5,030 nt of DNA, taken from the IMG/VR virus record IMGVR_UViG_3300022758_000366; one strand, written 5' to 3'. Numbering within the stretch: position 1 is the first letter of the stretch; each line of letters begins with the position of its first letter. Below, in pieces: positions 1 through 5,030 of this stretch. The notes beneath the pieces were generated by a model. That model worked only from the letters and a program-made list of their open reading frames with translations. It ran no database searches and was not told the DNA's origin. A program made the position numbers and the translations under genes. The DNA is from a virus (Duplodnaviria; Heunggongvirae; Uroviricota; Caudoviricetes).

Positions 1-1848
1 CACATGCCGGGACCATTACCGTCTATGAAGGTTCCAGACCAGGTACGCTGAATGATTTTCTCGGTGCCATGACGGAGGATGAGCCCGTCCGGAGGCACTG
101 CGCCGTTTTGAGCTGATGGTGAATGAAGTGGCACGTCATGCCGGAGCGTCATCACAGAGCGCAGCGGCGGCAAAGAAATCCGAAACTGCAGCGGCATCAT
201 CGAAGAACGCGGCGAAAACCTCAGAAACGAATGCAGCTAATAGTGCACAGGCGGCAGCGACCTCACAGACTGCATCAGAAAACTCCGCGACAGCAGCCAA
301 AAATCAGAAACCAACGCGAAAAATAGCGAGACAGCCGCAAAGACGAGCGAAACCAACGCAAAGTCCAGCCAGACGGCAGCGAAAACCAGCGAAACGAATG
401 CCAAAGACAGTGAAGCCACGCAAAAGGTGAGCGAAACAGCGGCTGCGAACTCAGCGAAAGCATCGGCAGCAAGCCAGACGGCAGCTAAAGCAAGCGAAGA
501 TGCAGCCAGAGAGTACGCAAGCCAGGCTGCGGAGCCGTATAAATATGTCTTACAGCCGCTGCCTGATGTGTGGATACCATTTAACGATTCGCTGGATATG
601 ATTACGGGCTTTTCGCCGTCATATAAAAAGATTGTTATTGGTGATGATGAAATAACGATGCCTGGCGACAAGGTTGTTAAGTTTAAACGCGCATCGAAAG
701 CAACCTATATTAATAAATCTGGTGTGCTGACAGTGGCTGCCATTGACGAGCCACGGTTTGAACGTGATGGCCTGCTTATTGAGGGGCAAAGAACGAACTA
801 CATGCTCAATTCGGAAAGCCCTGCCAGTTGGGGGCGATCGTCAAATATGGATGTTCCCGAAACCGGGACGGATAGTTTTGGTTTTACCTATGGAAAGTTT
901 GTCTGTAACGATTCTCTGATTGGGCAAACCTCAGCCATTAATATGGCATCAATTGCTGCAACAAAGTCAGTTGATGTCTCAGGCGATAATAAATACGTGA
1001 CAACCTCATGTCGTTTTAAAACAGAACTGCAGGTAAGGTTGCGTATCCGATTTGATAAATATGACGGTAGCGCAACAACTTTTCTTGGTGATGTGTATAT
1101 TGATACACAAACGCTTGAAATTAATATGACAGGCGGCGCTGCCTCAAGGATTACAGCGAGAGTCAGAAAGGACGAAGTTATCGGATGGATTTTTGCAGAG
1201 GCAACAATTCAGGCAATTGATGGGGAGTTAAAAATAGGTTCTCAGATACAGTATTCTCCTAAGCAGGGCGGGGCAACCGTATCTGGTGACTATATTTATC
1301 TGGCCACCCCACAAGTAGAAAATGGGCCTTGTGTATCATCTTTTATTATATCAGGAACGACGGCGGCGACCCGCGCAAGCGATATAGTCACAGTTCCCAT
1401 TAAGAATAATCTTTATAATCTTCCTTTTACGGTTCTTTGTGAGGTACATAAGAACTGGTATAAAACGCCAATGCAGCACCGCGTGTTTTTGATACCGGCG
1501 GTCATCAAACCGGAGCGGCTATTATTCTTGGCTTCGGTTCTTCAGCAGATTACGACGGATTTCCTTATTGCGATATTGGTGGGTCTAACAGACGGATAAA
1601 CGAAAATGCATCACTTGAAAAAAATGGTTATGGGGATGCGTGTAAAGTCTGATCAGTCTACATGCGCAGTAAGTAACGGGCGTATATCCAGCGAAACAAA
1701 AACCACATGGTCCTGTATTCAGAACACCGCAATTATCCGTATTGGAGGCCAGACTACAGCCGGGTTACGTCATTTATTTGGTCATGTAAGGAATTTCAGA
1801 ATATGGCACAAGGCATTGACTGATGCTCAGGTGGGGGAGTCAATCTAA
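1..1848 (+). CDS. stf: Side tail fibre protein (lambda Stf-like N-proximal part, Ala/Ser/Thr repeat, LamG-like distal domain); 5' end outside window; reading frame broken as sequenced
   Basis: Frame 3 at 3..113 gives HAGTITVYEGSRPGTLNDFLGAMTEDEP. Frame 2 from 83 gives ARPEALRRFELMVNEVARHAGASSQSAAAAKKSETAAASSKNAAKTSETNAA. Both peptides match my recollection of lambda Stf (HAGTITVYEDSQPGTLNDFLCAMTEDDARPEVLRRLELMVEEVAR). Frame 1 from 299 continues KSETNAKNSETAAKTSETNAK to the stop at 1597-1599. A frame-3 stretch 1482..1649 (DTGGHQTGAAIILGFGSSADYDGFPYCDIGG) and frame 1 at 1651..1848 (ending GLRHLFGHVRNFRIWHKALTDAQVGESI) look like one concanavalin/LamG-type domain. The listed ORFs 116..430, 427..1599 and 1606..1848 are pieces of this one gene; the 'M' at 427 is an internal GTG. 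Confidence 0.85.
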
Positions 1849-2852: not shown

Positions 2853-3140
2853 ATGGATATAACACCTTTTCTTCATGCGCTTTGTGCTGTGGCTGCGCAG
2901 GTACTGATTGGCCTTTTTACCGGAAACTGGGCTTACGGTGCGATAGCCGGTTGTACGTTCTTCATTGCGCGTGAACACACCCAGGCAGAATATCGCTGGA
3001 TTGAAATGTTTGGGCATGGCAAGAGGATTAACATGCCGTGGTGGGGCGGTTTTGATCCGCGCGTGTGGGATGTGGCAAGCCTGATGGATTTTGCTGTGCC
3101 GGTGGTGGCGTGTCTGCTGATCTGGATGTTGATCCGTTAA
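2853..3140 (+). CDS. Small integral membrane protein (95 aa, about three hydrophobic helices); moron-position gene, possible superinfection-exclusion or lysogenic-conversion function
   Basis: A strong Shine-Dalgarno AGGAGGAG at 2843-2850 precedes the ATG at 2853. Hydrophobic segments are FLHALCAVAAQVLIGLF, WAYGAIAGCTFFIA and VASLMDFAVPVVACLLIWMLI. It lies between the tail-fibre genes and the att site and is followed by a hairpin. No lipobox. Confidence 0.6.
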   Translation: MDITPFLHALCAVAAQVLIGLFTGNWAYGAIAGCTFFIAREHTQAEYRWIEMFGHGKRINMPWWGGFDPRVWDVASLMDFAVPVVACLLIWMLIR

Positions 3141-3191: not shown

Positions 3192-3485
3192 GGTTAACTT
3201 TCGATAGTGCGAGTATTGAATGATTTCCAGCCGTTACCGATTTTATATAACTGCAGTGGAATTATTCAACACACAGGCAAAACGGAATAAGCTGAGAAAA
3301 AAAGCGTGCTTACCCAATCTGGGGTAAATCACGTCTGAATGACACCTGAAAACAGGTGGTGGCCTCAAGAAGGCTTGGAATATTCTTCTTTAATGTTATG
3401 TAATTTATTGATTTTTCGTGTACGATTTTAAGACATTTATTCCAAGAAAAGTTTTTAACTCTTTGATTTTTCGACTCTGTATCAT

Positions 3486-3547
3486 CGGTCTCGAAAACCG
3501 GAGTGGGGGCAACTCCACCGGGGGTTCAAATCCCCCTCTCTCCGCCA
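3486..3547 (+). other. 3' portion of a tRNA-Ser(CGA) gene (anticodon stem-loop to CCA); not a complete tRNA; att core
   Basis: CGGT-CTCGAAA-ACCGG gives an anticodon loop with anticodon CGA. A long class-II variable arm AGTGGGGGCAACTCCAC follows, then T arm GGGGG-TTCAAAT-CCCCC, acceptor 3' strand TCTCTCC, discriminator G and CCA. Nearly identical to my recollection of E. coli serU from the anticodon stem onward. The upstream sequence TTTTTCGACTCTGTATCAT cannot form the acceptor 5' strand or D arm. Confidence 0.8.
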
Positions 3548-3592
3548 AAATTCAATCACTTACACATCATTAAGTCAGTGACAAAAATCACA

Positions 3593-3628
3593 CTTGGAAT
3601 TACTTGGAATATTTTCTTGGAATATTTT
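3593..3628 (+). repeat. Three tandem direct repeats CTTGGAAT(T/A)TT(TT): putative integrase arm-type binding sites (P' arm)
   Basis: Units at 3593-3602, 3603-3615 and 3616-3628. The same 11-mer recurs at 3374-3384 and inverted at 3435-3446. The repeats overlap the last codons and stop of the int fragment. Confidence 0.55.
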
Positions 3629-3945
3629 CAGGTAACGGGACATCAAGTGTTGGTGAAACTTTAACCTTCCTGTCATAGATTAGCACTTGCCCTTCGGTTT
3701 TGTGACCAGAGAAAAGTTGCTTATCCCGGCTGCTTCCTTCATAGTCTGAAATTCCTTTCGCCTTCAGATCATGAAAGGTGAAGTCGGTTAAAATACCTGA
3801 AATTTTTCCAGCACGATTTCTTGCTTCTACCCACATTTCGTTAAAGCCTTTGTACATATATCGGTTGCCGTATTGATTGCTGATCACATAGGCAGATTTT
3901 GGTAACTGTTTTGCTTTTCGATCGCTGCCTGTAATCGTGGACTCC
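3600..3945 (-). pseudogene. int: Tyrosine integrase (lambda Int family), C-terminal fragment only; N-terminal and core-binding domains absent
   Basis: The C-terminal ~100 residues of the 3600..4199 ORF (AYVISNQYGNRYMYKGFNEMWVEARNRAGKISGILTDFTFHDLKAKGISDYEGSSRDKQLFSGHKTEGQVLIYDRK) align by eye with the lambda Int C-terminus (TFHELRSLSARLYEKQISDKFAQHLLGHKSDTMASQYRDDR), including the His, the GHK His and the Tyr nucleophile. The Arg of H-x-L-R is Lys here. Nothing upstream resembles the first catalytic Arg/Lys region. The 3' end abuts the att site. The boundary at ~3945 is approximate. Confidence 0.7.
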
Positions 3946-4407
3946 ATGCTTTTATCTGTATCTTTATCTGTCGTGACTCGTCGTGACATGTGCGTGACAT
4001 TTCGTGACGCGCCGTGACAATCGCCATTTTGTTCCCGCTTTCTTTCCCTCTCTCGCTGCGCCCTCTTGCGCTCTGCAGGAGATTTTGCGGTTTGCGAAAT
4101 ATTGCCGTTGTCCTCTTTAAGCACCTGGCGTTTTTCCCATCCAGTGATTAAATCACCATCAAGTACCCGCCCCTGCATCGTCTGCAAAATTTGAATCAAT
4201 TACCTCTTCTGTCACGTCGAGCGCACTTGCCAAATCTTCTGTCGTGACATCAATGTGACCTCGCGTGACATTTCGTGACGCGCTCACCAGGAGGTGGATA
4301 TACACTGCCATCACTGTTGCAATTGGCTGCCCTGACACCCTGGCAATTGTTCGCCACTTAGGGTCATTTGGCATGTCATGCCATAATCTGAGCCAGGCGT
4401 TAGCCAT
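3946..4407 (-). CDS. Putative phage replication initiator (YdaU/DUF1376-like N-terminus, from memory), frameshifted and continuous with the int fragment
   Basis: ATG at 4407 with SD GAGGTGAG. The N-terminus MANAWLRLWHDMPNDPKWRTIARVSGQPIATVMAVYIHLL resembles the W..Y....DPK N-terminal motif I recall for DUF1376/YdaU-like initiators. A frame change lies near 4160-4200, after which the sequence continues as QGRVLDGDLITGWEKRQ...ERKRAQRERERK. Iteron-like repeats are embedded in the coding sequence. Sits immediately downstream of a YdaT-like gene, as in the Rac ydaS-ydaT-ydaU-ydaV module. The 3' boundary is approximate. Confidence 0.45.
3972..4279. repeat. Iteron-like CGTGAC direct repeats with ~10-11 bp phasing (putative replication origin inside the initiator gene)
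   Basis: CGTGAC starts at 3972, 3982, 3993, 4003 and 4013, then at 4243, 4254 (TGTGAC), 4264 and 4274, with an inverted GTCACG at 4211-4216. An identical 21-mer GCGTGACATTTCGTGACGCGC occurs at 3992-4012 and 4263-4283. An AT-rich block with TATCTG repeats lies at 3948-3970. Confidence 0.55.
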
Positions 4408-4479: not shown

Positions 4480-4904
4480 TCAATGCACTGCCACAGCATT
4501 TCCTGCCGGGCCACCACGGTTCATCTGATTGAAACCGGCGATTGCCACTGCGACAAAATCATCGGCGTCTCTCACCAGTCGCTCCCGCGTCTCCACCAGC
4601 TCCCGAAATAAGCTGAACTGTGGCTACGCATTCTGGCCACCAGCAAAGGTGGCATTGCCTTTTCGATCGCTGGTACAACGCCTGAATTTTTTCAACTGCA
4701 TCAGGGGTGTCTTTCTCTACCCAGCGGAAAATTTTCTGGGTATTGCGAGCCAGGGCTTCCGGATGGCTGTCGTCGTACAGTTCAGGAAACGTCATACCCA
4801 ACTCAAAATAAGCCTGGGTTATTCCAGCTGCCGGAACTTTTTTCGCCATCAGGACGCGCCCAGGCATTCATCGCCATGCGGATGTGTTCATGCTTGATTT
4901 TCAT
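4480..4904 (-). CDS. YdaT-like protein (Rac prophage ydaT family, assignment from memory), interrupted by two frame changes as sequenced
   Basis: ATG at 4904-4902 is preceded by AAGGGGGG. The frame gives MKIKHEHIRMAMNAWARPDGEK, then after the T6 run at 4838-4843 a second frame gives VPAAGITQAYFELGMTFPELYDDSHPEALARNTQKIFRWVEKDTPDAVEKIQALYQRS, and a third frame (ELVETRERLVRDADDFVAVAIAGFNQMNRGGPAGNAVAVH) ends at the stop 4480-4482 just before the next gene's RBS. Removing two single-base insertions gives 141 codons, which matches my recollection that YdaT is 140 aa. Confidence 0.45.
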
Positions 4905-5030
4905 GAATCCCCCCTTGGTTAGAAGGCGGATTATGATCAGAACCGGGAATGACAACCGTCGGTATGTGTAACTCATATTTGAGCGCCCCCGGCAGTGACT
5001 GCCTGAATTAGCAACGCCCATTTCCACGGC

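What the first reader, a model, noticed from the sequence alone, without database searches (positions are those of the whole stretch)
3600..4407. Chimeric open frame: replication-initiator-like N-terminus joined to an integrase C-terminal fragment, co-oriented with the early module
In lambdoid genomes int and the O/P-type replication genes are on opposite strands and far apart. Here the YdaT-like and initiator-like genes run on the same strand as int. The initiator coding sequence flows without a stop into the last ~110 codons of int, which has lost its N-terminal and core-binding domains and carries HDLK instead of HxLR. This looks like an inversion/deletion junction that inactivated int while retaining attP, or less likely a fused protein.
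Basis: partly seen in the sequence, partly recalled or inferred. Interest (0 to 1): 0.65.

Follow-up and report, generated by a model that had tools for sequence, protein, structure and literature searches.

The report
Broken-gene junction in error-ridden phage contig
The "fused replication-initiator/integrase gene" is a breakpoint where two separate E. coli phage genes are joined back-to-front in a short, low-quality metagenome contig. The reading frame across it stays open only because of single-base sequencing-type errors, so it is most likely an artefact or at best a private rearrangement.

Summary
The window is one whole 5,030-bp JGI metagenome contig from an E. coli lambdoid phage that integrates at the tRNA gene serU. 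On the minus strand, the first 152 codons of a 356-aa replisome-organizer (O-like) gene meet the last 119 codons of a 341-aa integrase. They join through a 9-nt microhomology, TTTATCTGT (3951-3959).

In the canonical prophage these two genes lie about 7.1 kb apart on opposite strands, so the junction needs an inversion.

There is no single open frame from the ATG at 4407; that ORF stops at 4159. The contig carries about 14 single-base homopolymer indels that break every gene. Correcting also the one at 3915-3918 removes the integrase from the frame.

The junction is absent from 5,426 complete E. coli genomes, phage records, IMG/VR, GTDB representatives and JGI metagenomes. Among 5.8 billion protein clusters, only the contig's own gene call spans both halves.

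HDLK is the native motif of this integrase family, not decay. attP is intact.

An inverted join of partners under 10 kb apart with short microhomology is the classic signature of a strand-displacement (MDA) chimera. Best reading: chimeric template (about 0.62). Rival: real private inversion (about 0.27). Low interest.

The parts
3300..3485 (+). Phage P arm of attP. It follows the tail-fibre genes at 116-2842 and a 95-aa membrane-protein gene at 2853-3140.
   Evidence: Matches the att-proximal ends of phages ev099, PhiR70_1 and mEp332 and the attR side of single lysogens next to zinT.
3486..3547 (+). The 3' 62 nt of tRNA-Ser(CGA) serU, in its phage-borne allele. This is the attP core region. 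It is not a complete tRNA.
   Evidence: ARAGORN finds no tRNA. It is 62/62 identical to the 3' part of the 90-nt serU gene of L003, and the sequence upstream is unrelated.
3600..3959 (-). 3' fragment of the integrase gene: codons about 223-341 of 341. It retains H285, K288, H308 and Y317. It lacks R195, K218 and both N-terminal domains.
   Evidence: 481 nt at 99.4% identity to the int of L003; the match ends at the junction. PF00589 scores only 17.7 bits against a cut-off of 27.1. Residues were mapped on lambda Int.
3915..3918 (.). T4 homopolymer that is T5 in every intact integrase compared. This 1-nt deficit is what brings the initiator frame into the integrase frame.
3951..3959 (.). The junction: a 9-nt microhomology, TTTATCTGT, shared by both parent genes. 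On the sense strand it reads ACAGATAAA.
   Evidence: Three-way alignment of the window, the intact int (L002, L003) and the intact initiator (L001). The same 9-mer recurs at 3963-3971.
3951..4407 (-). 5' fragment of the replisome-organizer (lambda O-like initiator) gene: codons 1-152 of 356. The C-terminal DnaT-like / helicase-loader part is missing.
   Evidence: No substitutions against L001 over 1,081 aligned columns. phrog_3729 positions 1-74 and 72-155 of 356 are matched. The full-length relative was translated.
4190..4192 (.). T3 run that is T2 in relatives. This 1-nt excess splits the initiator fragment into two frames, so the ATG 4407 ORF stops at 4159.
3972..4018 (+). Five CGTGAC repeats at 10-11-bp spacing inside the initiator gene, taken as putative origin iterons. 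The breakpoint lies in the roughly 45-bp AT-rich stretch that flanks them in the intact gene.
   Evidence: 11 CGTGAC in the window against 1.9 expected; 0 of 200 shuffles reach 11. Repeat families are and AT content. That this is an origin is inferred by analogy with lambda ori inside gene O.
4211..4279 (+). Second cluster of CGTGAC repeats (four copies, one inverted) in the N-terminal coding part. It includes a 21-nt exact copy of GCGTGACATTTCGTGACGCGC.
4480..4904 (-). YdaT-family gene, split by homopolymer indels at about 4606, 4675 and 4838.
   Evidence: PGAP name in L001; PF06254 match; indels listed.
4888..5030 (-). 3' part of a Cro/DicC-like regulator gene, cut by the contig end.
   Evidence: Annotation of L001 and L003 under the aligned stretch. 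Coordinates are approximate.

Best explanation
The feature is a breakpoint, not a gene. The contig comes from a serU-integrating lambdoid phage of E. coli and was read with a homopolymer-error-prone method at low depth. At 3951-3959 the 3' third of int is joined, through 9 nt of microhomology, to the 5' 152 codons of the O-like replisome-organizer gene. The orientation is opposite to that in the parent genome, where the two sites are about 7.1 kb apart.

The most likely origin is a chimeric template or read. A displaced or nascent 3' end annealed at a short complementary stretch on a nearby strand of the same molecule and was extended. This happens in strand-displacement (phi29/MDA-type) amplification. 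The assembler then accepted that read at low coverage.

The apparent open frame across the joint is an accident of two single-base homopolymer miscalls. No fused initiator-integrase protein is encoded.

Shown: the junction, the microhomology, the inversion relative to relatives, the error pattern and the singleton status. Inferred: the sequencing technology, the low depth and the in-vitro origin.
For: (1) Contig-wide error pattern. There are about 14 single-base indels, all in homopolymers, with both over- and under-calls, and every gene is broken. Against the nearest relative there are 0 substitutions and 6 indels in 1,081 columns.

(2) The frame depends on those indels. As read, the ORF from ATG 4407 is 82 aa. 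With one indel fixed it is a 268-aa fusion. With both fixed it is initiator residues 1-152 plus a 36-aa out-of-frame tail.

(3) The window is a whole 5,030-bp JGI contig, and its 192-aa gene call is a one-member cluster.

(4) The junction is absent from 5,426 complete E. coli genomes, 2,342 of which hold one or other half. It is also absent from phage records and from IMG/VR, GTDB representatives and JGI metagenomes. The predicted reciprocal junction is absent as well.

(5) No other protein among 5.8 billion clusters covers more than 62% of the chimeric ORF.

(6) The junction is inverted, its partners are 7.1 kb apart in the canonical prophage L003, and it has a 9-nt overlap. In MDA chimeras of E. 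coli read by 454, 85% were inverted, most partners were under 10 kb apart, 93.5% of those had complementarity of 2-21 nt, and 0.45% of reads were chimeric (PMC1855051).

(7) The contig carries attP (POP'). This is expected for excised or virion DNA. Only 9 of 5,426 complete genomes show this tail-to-int arrangement. A phage lacking both int and the initiator C-terminus could not excise or replicate, so it would not be an abundant free genome.
Against: No reads, coverage or sample metadata are available, so neither MDA nor low depth is demonstrated. A 9-nt microhomology is equally what in-vivo microhomology-mediated rearrangement leaves behind. Overlap and de Bruijn assemblers cannot join on 9 nt, so an artefact requires a physically chimeric molecule or read, and these are rare without whole-genome amplification. 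The public collections searched may simply not contain this strain. The exact-match scans would also miss a copy of the junction that carries a sequencing error.
Confidence: 0.62

Rival explanations
1. A real, heritable inversion in a prophage. Illegitimate recombination or replication template switching occurred between the 9-bp inverted repeats ACAGATAAA in int and in the initiator gene. This flipped the roughly 7-kb early region (int N-terminus ... cI, cro, ydaT, initiator N-terminus) and truncated both genes. The result is a prophage, here the second member of a tandem pair because attP is present, that can neither excise nor replicate.
For: One inversion between the two 9-mers in the canonical layout of L003 reproduces the window exactly. 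Both modules coexist in one serU prophage. Tandem tail-attP-int arrangements exist in 9 complete genomes. The break lies in the AT-rich stretch beside the putative iterons, where single-stranded DNA and nascent ends would occur. The iteron region is rearrangement-prone in other genomes: P0009 carries a 34-aa tandem duplication there.
Against: It is not seen in any of the 2,342 complete genomes that hold either half, nor in any other collection. The reciprocal junction was not found. It requires the rare tandem-lysogen background. Sequence quality shows the contig rests on very few reads.
Confidence: 0.27
2. A real but non-heritable aberrant molecule. It would arise from a template switch during phage replication from the origin inside the initiator gene, giving an inverted junction in a minority of intracellular or packaged genomes, and would have been sampled by chance at low coverage.
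For: The breakpoint is immediately beside the putative origin repeats and inside their AT-rich flank. attP indicates excised or replicating phage DNA. Origin-dependent template switching at short inverted repeats is a described mechanism in yeast; I saw PMC4689423 only in the title and abstract list and did not read it.
Against: Such molecules should be far rarer than normal genomes, so sampling one is improbable. Nothing in the sequence separates this from the in-vitro version. That this region is the origin is inferred, not shown.
Confidence: 0.08
3. A natural fusion protein that joins an origin-binding N-terminal domain to a tyrosine-recombinase catalytic C-terminus.
For: If only the 4190 indel is treated as an error, a 268-aa ORF with a good ribosome-binding site results. 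The initiator N-terminal domain is modular and occurs with other C-termini (phrog_15931 at 482 aa, phrog_21423 at 157 aa).
Against: There is no second example in 5.8 billion protein clusters. The frame needs a 1-nt deletion in a run that is T5 in all intact integrases, and 12 linker codons are out-of-frame integrase DNA. The integrase part lacks Arg-I and the catalytic Lys and scores below the Pfam cut-off. The DNA on each side is 99-100% identical to ordinary separate genes.
Confidence: 0.01

Closest known systems
Canonical serU-integrated lambdoid prophage of E. coli, for example in isolate AHB10 (NZ_OZ546984.1) or the record 'Escherichia phage vB_EcoM-606R7' (ON470580.1)
   Same: It has the same integrase (99.4% identity at DNA level over the retained part). 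It has the same Cro / YdaT / replisome-organizer module (99.0%). It uses the same serU tRNA-Ser(CGA) attachment core.
   Different: In those records int (341 aa) and the initiator (356 aa) are complete, on opposite strands and about 7.1 kb apart, separated by the cI-like, ydfA-C, dicB, ydfD, exonuclease and DUF4224 genes. In the window they are truncated and abut on one strand.
Chimeric junctions made by multiple displacement amplification (Lasken & Stockwell 2007, PMC1855051)
   Same: The second segment is inverted, the partners are under 10 kb apart on one molecule, and the joint has complementarity within the 2-21 nt range (9 nt here).
   Different: It is not known whether this sample was amplified. 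The resemblance is one of signature only, and in-vivo microhomology-mediated events leave the same scar.
Lambda O protein and ori-lambda (textbook knowledge, not tested here)
   Same: An initiator whose N-terminal part is followed, inside the coding sequence, by phased direct repeats and an AT-rich stretch. The gene lies downstream of cro and a cII-position gene.
   Different: There is no detectable Pfam or NCBIfam match to lambda O. The repeats are a 6-bp CGTGAC core in two clusters rather than four 19-bp iterons. The C-terminus of intact relatives is DnaT-like (PF17948). Origin function is inferred.
Decayed cryptic prophages with integrase pseudogenes, for example Qin in E. coli K-12
   Same: They have the same type of early region (dicC/cro, dicA, ydfA-C, dicB, ydfD) and degraded integration and replication genes.
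   Different: There is no sequence similarity between the window and the K-12 ydfW/ydfX region. K-12 lacks this junction.

Membership tests
Tyrosine recombinase, lambda Int family (Pfam PF00589 catalytic domain) | Complete catalytic domain that scores above the Pfam gathering threshold | tested here: not met
   The window ORF scores 17.7 bits against a cut-off of 27.1. The intact relative scores 44.9 bits and also matches PF22022 and PF14659.
Tyrosine recombinase, lambda Int family (Pfam PF00589 catalytic domain) | Catalytic residues Arg-I, Lys, His, Arg-II, His/Trp and Tyr all present | tested here: not met
   Alignment to lambda Int and residue indexing show that the fragment starts at about Q223. 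R195 (lambda R212) and K218 (lambda K235) are therefore lost. H285, K288 (at the lambda R311 position), H308 and Y317 remain. K at the Arg-II position is native to this family: all 15 integrase-type homologues have FTFHDLK.
Tyrosine recombinase, lambda Int family (Pfam PF00589 catalytic domain) | N-terminal arm-binding and core-binding domains | tested here: not met
   Absent. The DNA match to the intact int ends at 3959.
Phage replisome organizer / replication initiation protein (phrog_3729; PGAP 'phage replisome organizer') | N-terminal domain of the family | tested here: met
   phrog_3729 positions 1-74 (E 1e-46) and 72-155 (E 2e-51) are matched by the two window ORFs. The DNA is identical to L001 apart from indels.
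Phage replisome organizer / replication initiation protein (phrog_3729; PGAP 'phage replisome organizer') | C-terminal half (DnaT-like ssDNA-binding / helicase-loader-type region, profile positions about 156-356) | tested here: not met
   Missing. The match to L001 stops at window 3951, which is codon 152 of 356. Relatives carry PF17948 there.
Natural fusion gene (a recurrent domain architecture) | Same architecture in independent genomes | tested here: not met
   Apart from the contig's own 192-aa gene call (a one-member cluster), no protein covers more than 62% of the query. No DNA record spans the joint.
Natural fusion gene (a recurrent domain architecture) | Uninterrupted frame from a start codon through both parts | tested here: not met
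   The ATG 4407 ORF ends at 4159. The frames join only after editing one indel while keeping another.
Strand-displacement (MDA-type) chimeric junction | Second segment inverted relative to the parent genome | tested here: met
   int and the initiator are on opposite strands in L003 and L005 but on one strand in the window.
Strand-displacement (MDA-type) chimeric junction | Partners under 10 kb apart on the parent molecule, with 2-21 nt of complementarity at the joint | tested here: met
   About 7.1 kb apart in L003 (positions 11858 and about 18992), with a 9-nt overlap. Criteria are from PMC1855051.
Strand-displacement (MDA-type) chimeric junction | Sample was amplified, and the junction is supported by only one or a few reads | not testable with these tools
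   No reads, coverage or metadata are available. The source contig could not be retrieved.
attP of a tRNA-targeting temperate phage | Phage arm, then the 3' part of the tRNA gene, then the integrase-side arm, contiguous | tested here: met
   The P arm (3300-3485) matches the attR side of single lysogens and phage attP regions. Positions 3486-3547 are the 3' 62 nt of serU. From 3548 on the sequence matches the int side of attL in L003.

The most novel reading that the evidence does not exclude
The junction is a genuine in-vivo inversion. It would have been triggered at the AT-rich unwinding region of a phage origin embedded in the initiator gene and resolved through 9 bp of inverted microhomology in int. 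In one step it would disable excision and replication and so lock a tandem serU prophage in place. That would make origin-proximal template switching a route of prophage domestication.
Probability: 0.27. Interest if true: 0.2.

Novelty: not a real feature. Interest (0 to 1): 0.08.

Why it matters
It matters mainly as a caution. In low-depth, homopolymer-error-prone metagenome contigs, an open frame across two unrelated gene fragments can be produced by a chimeric joint plus compensating miscalls. Gene callers will then deposit it as a protein; here it is a singleton 192-aa entry. If the inversion were real, it would be one more private example of prophage decay. Its only modest point of interest would be that the break lies in the AT-rich flank of the putative phage origin.

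Tried and rejected
(1) K-12 Qin parallel. ydfW was once called intK and sits next to dicC. There is no DNA or protein similarity to the window, so I rejected it.

(2) phrog_14425. It seemed to align across the joint. It is in fact a family of integrase C-terminal fragments. The integrase part alone gives the same score (149 bits), and the intact int matches the whole profile.

(3) tblastn hits H67 and H68, which start at ORF residue 77. They come from an ordinary integrase in a canonical prophage region, and the overlap is alignment extension.

(4) Finding the source or a second copy. Exact scans for the junction in IMG/VR, GTDB representatives and JGI metagenomes gave nothing. The look-up of encoding contigs and the cluster look-up gave no accession.

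(5) Reciprocal junction predicted by the inversion model. It was not found in any of the three collections. This is uninformative if the strain is not in those collections.

(6) Assembler mis-join on a shared repeat. The shared sequence is only 9 nt, too short for any assembler overlap or k-mer, so a physically chimeric read or a real joint is needed.

(7) Int-mediated recombination at a secondary site. The joint is inside int itself and has no resemblance to the serU core.

(8) Mismatch-repair-deficient mutator as the source of the indels. This is incompatible with 6 indels and 0 substitutions, and with every gene in 5 kb being frameshifted.

(9) PGAP's 'frameshifted' flag on the intact int of L002 and L003. 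Frame 0 is open for 341 codons. The flag reflects the variable 3' end and not a broken gene.

Full report
What the window is

The ORF map and sequence and comparison with annotated E. coli genomes show a piece of a lambdoid phage or prophage that uses the tRNA-Ser(CGA) gene serU as its attachment site.

On the plus strand lie:
- tail-fibre genes (116-1848);
- a small gene (1848-2156);
- a 234-aa fibre protein with a Peptidase_S74 chaperone domain (2138-2842);
- a 95-aa membrane-protein gene (2853-3140).

Then comes a complete attP. The phage arm (3300-3485) is followed by the 3' 62 nt of serU (3486-3547). ARAGORN finds no whole tRNA there, and the fragment is 62/62 identical to the gene in L003. 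The integrase-side arm follows.

On the minus strand lie an integrase 3' fragment (3600-3959), a replisome-organizer 5' fragment (3951-4407), a YdaT-family gene (4480-4904) and the end of a cro/dicC-like gene.

The protein search shows that the window is an entire JGI metagenome contig of 5,030 bp. Its gene call (P0001, 192 aa, 100% identical to the window ORF) is a cluster with a single member on a single contig of that length.

The observation

- The upstream part matches phrog_3729 'replication initiation protein' (positions 1-74 and 72-155 of 356). Indels apart, it is identical to a gene that PGAP calls 'phage replisome organizer'.
- The downstream part is the C-terminus of a 341-aa tyrosine integrase.

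There is, however, no single frame from 4407 to 3600. The interval is 808 nt. The ORF from the ATG at 4407, which has a good GAGGTG ribosome-binding site, ends after 82 codons at 4159. The frame that runs into int is a different one (3600-4199). Inside that frame the 12 codons after the joint (SMESTITGSDRK) are integrase DNA read out of frame. The true integrase frame (…IKAWSPRLQAAIEK…) is a third frame. The open frame re-enters it only because a T5 run in all intact integrases compared here is T4 at 3915-3918.

The sequence is error-ridden

- Against the nearest relative of the right-hand part (L001), the window has 0 substitutions and 6 single-base indels in 1,081 columns, all in homopolymer runs.
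- Over the whole 5 kb there are about 14 such indels, at about 299, 419, 422, 1470, 1618, 2055, 3297, 3915, 4190, 4432, 4606, 4675, 4838 and 4986. Insertions and deletions are about equal in number, and runs as short as two bases are affected.
- Together they break the tail-fibre gene, the small gene at 1848, the initiator and ydaT.

I infer flow-based (454 or Ion Torrent type) sequencing at very low depth, not biology. A mismatch-repair mutator would also give substitutions.

The consequence for the finding was computed:

| Sequence used | ORF from ATG 4407 |
|---|---|
| As read | 82 aa |
| The 3915 run also restored to T5 | Initiator residues 1-152 plus a 36-aa out-of-frame tail, with no integrase |

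The junction

A three-way alignment places the joint at 3951-3959.
- The window follows the integrase (L002, L003) up to …CATGCT-TTTATCTGT.
- It follows the initiator gene (L001) from TTTATCTGT-ATCTTTATCTGTCGTGAC… onward.
- Only these 9 nt are shared.

In canonical prophages at serU (L003 from isolate AHB10; L005) the order is: initiator(-), ydaT(-), cro(-), cI-like(+), ydfA-C, dicB, ydfD, exonuclease, DUF4224, int(+), tRNA-Ser(-), mtfA. The two break sites are about 7.1 kb apart and on opposite strands. The two 9-mers are therefore inverted repeats, and a single inversion or strand switch between them reproduces the window exactly.

The integrase remnant starts at about Q223. It has lost R195 and K218, the equivalents of lambda R212 and K235, and both N-terminal domains. 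The initiator remnant has lost its C-terminal 204 residues.

On the initiator side the break lies in a roughly 45-bp stretch of 70-75% A+T. This stretch flanks five CGTGAC repeats spaced 10-11 bp apart (3972-4018). A second cluster lies at 4211-4279. The window holds 11 copies of the hexamer against 1.9 expected. By analogy with ori-lambda inside gene O (textbook knowledge), this is probably the phage origin. That is inference.

Is it a natural architecture?

No.
- No record among 5,426 complete E. coli genomes spans the joint, although 2,342 genomes hold one half or the other.
- No phage record spans it, by DNA or by tblastn.
- Exact scans of IMG/VR, GTDB representative genomes and JGI metagenomes found neither the joint nor the reciprocal joint predicted by an inversion.
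- Among 5.8 billion protein clusters, every hit other than the contig's own gene call covers at most 62% of the ORF.

HDLK is not decay. All 15 integrase-type proteins among the 120 listed homologues read FTFHDLK. Those rows include clusters of 1,013 and 2,068 member sequences. The K aligns with lambda R311.

Artefact or real rearrangement?

An assembler cannot join on 9 nt. The joint therefore existed either in a physical molecule or in a read.

Its signature is an inverted second segment, partners under 10 kb apart on one molecule, and a short complementary overlap. That is exactly what Lasken and Stockwell described for MDA chimeras of E. coli DNA read by 454:
- 85% of chimeras were inverted;
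- most partners were under 10 kb apart;
- complementarity of 2-21 nt was found in 93.5% of the proximal inverted cases;
- 0.45% of reads were chimeric (PMC1855051).

The contig also carries attP. This is expected for excised or virion DNA, but only 9 of the 5,426 complete genomes show this tail-to-int arrangement. A phage without int and without the initiator C-terminus could neither excise nor replicate, so it should not be an abundant free genome. Combined with the evident low depth and the singleton status, this makes a chimeric template the most likely origin. I put that at about 0.62.

A real inversion leaves the same scar and cannot be excluded (about 0.27). A transient aberrant replication product is a minor variant (about 0.08). 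A genuine fusion protein is essentially excluded (about 0.01). I could not obtain reads, depth or sample metadata, and those would decide the matter.

Leads that went nowhere

- The K-12 Qin ydfW ('intK')/ydfX region next to dicC has no similarity to the window.
- phrog_14425, which seemed to align across the joint, is a family of integrase C-terminal fragments. It scores the same with the integrase part alone.
- The best match to the initiator module (L001) sits in a prophage with a different integrase, next to potC. The early module is therefore mosaic, and the two halves of the window need not come from one prophage, although they do coexist in L003.

Verdict

The joint is in the sequence, but the 'chimeric open frame' is not a gene. 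It is a breakpoint in a low-quality contig, and the frame across it is kept open by homopolymer miscalls. Interest is low.

Noticed in passing
window 299, 419-422, 1470, 1618, 2055, 3297, 3915, 4190, 4432, 4606, 4675, 4838, 4986: About 14 single-base homopolymer indels relative to close relatives, with both insertions and deletions, frameshift every gene in the contig: tail fibre, the 1848 gene, initiator and ydaT. The right-hand 1.08 kb has 6 indels and no substitutions against L001.
   Followed up: yes
window 3972-4018 and 4211-4279: Two clusters of CGTGAC repeats lie inside the initiator coding sequence: five direct copies at 10-11-bp spacing, and four more of which one is inverted. They include a 21-nt exact repeat, GCGTGACATTTCGTGACGCGC, at 3992-4012 and 4263-4283, which encodes repeated 'SRNVT' peptides. 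In intact genes a roughly 45-bp AT-rich stretch with 12-bp tandem units (ATCTTTATCTGT) flanks them. This is probably the phage origin.
   Followed up: partly
window 3486-3547 versus L007 (attR of a single lysogen): The phage-borne 3' copy of serU differs from the copy at attR by two bases (GAGTGGGGGCAACTCCAC against GAGTAGGGGCAACTCTAC). These would form a compensatory pair (G-C against A-T) in the tRNA's long variable arm. Integration would therefore swap one paired allele for another.
   Followed up: partly
window 3604-3629 (minus strand): The integrase 3' end contains a 13-nt tandem duplication (GAAAATATTCCAA x2). With two copies the protein ends …ENIPRKYSK*, which is the common 341-aa form. 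Some database proteins (P0007, P0008) end …ENIPSNSKCDFCH*, as expected for one copy. PGAP flags the int of L002 and L003 as 'frameshifted' although frame 0 is open for 341 codons.
   Followed up: partly
L002 (NZ_CP185789.1) 1-6767, and 8 other complete genomes: Only 9 of 5,426 complete E. coli genomes show tail fibre, then attP, then int contiguous as in the window, as would be expected between tandem prophages. Single lysogens instead end at window position 3562, next to zinT.
   Followed up: partly
L001 and L008 (NZ_OZ282453.1, 2974820-2992000): The Cro/YdaT/initiator module that is identical to the window (indels apart) sits in a prophage with a different integrase and excisionase next to potC. 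The early module is therefore exchanged between prophages that use different attachment sites.
   Followed up: no
proteins P0009, P0051 and many 'partial' replisome-organizer entries: The iteron-encoding middle of this initiator gene is unstable or hard to assemble elsewhere too. P0009 has a 34-aa tandem duplication of the segment. P0051 is truncated at 150 aa by a frameshift. Large clusters of 'partial' proteins end there at contig ends.
   Followed up: no
window 116-540 (plus strand): The tail-fibre N-terminal region is a run of Ala/Ser/Thr/Lys-rich short repeats (…SETAAASSKNAAKTSETNAANSAQAA…). It is frameshifted at about 299 and about 420. Downstream, a separate 234-aa fibre protein carries a Peptidase_S74 intramolecular-chaperone domain (2138-2842).
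   Followed up: partly
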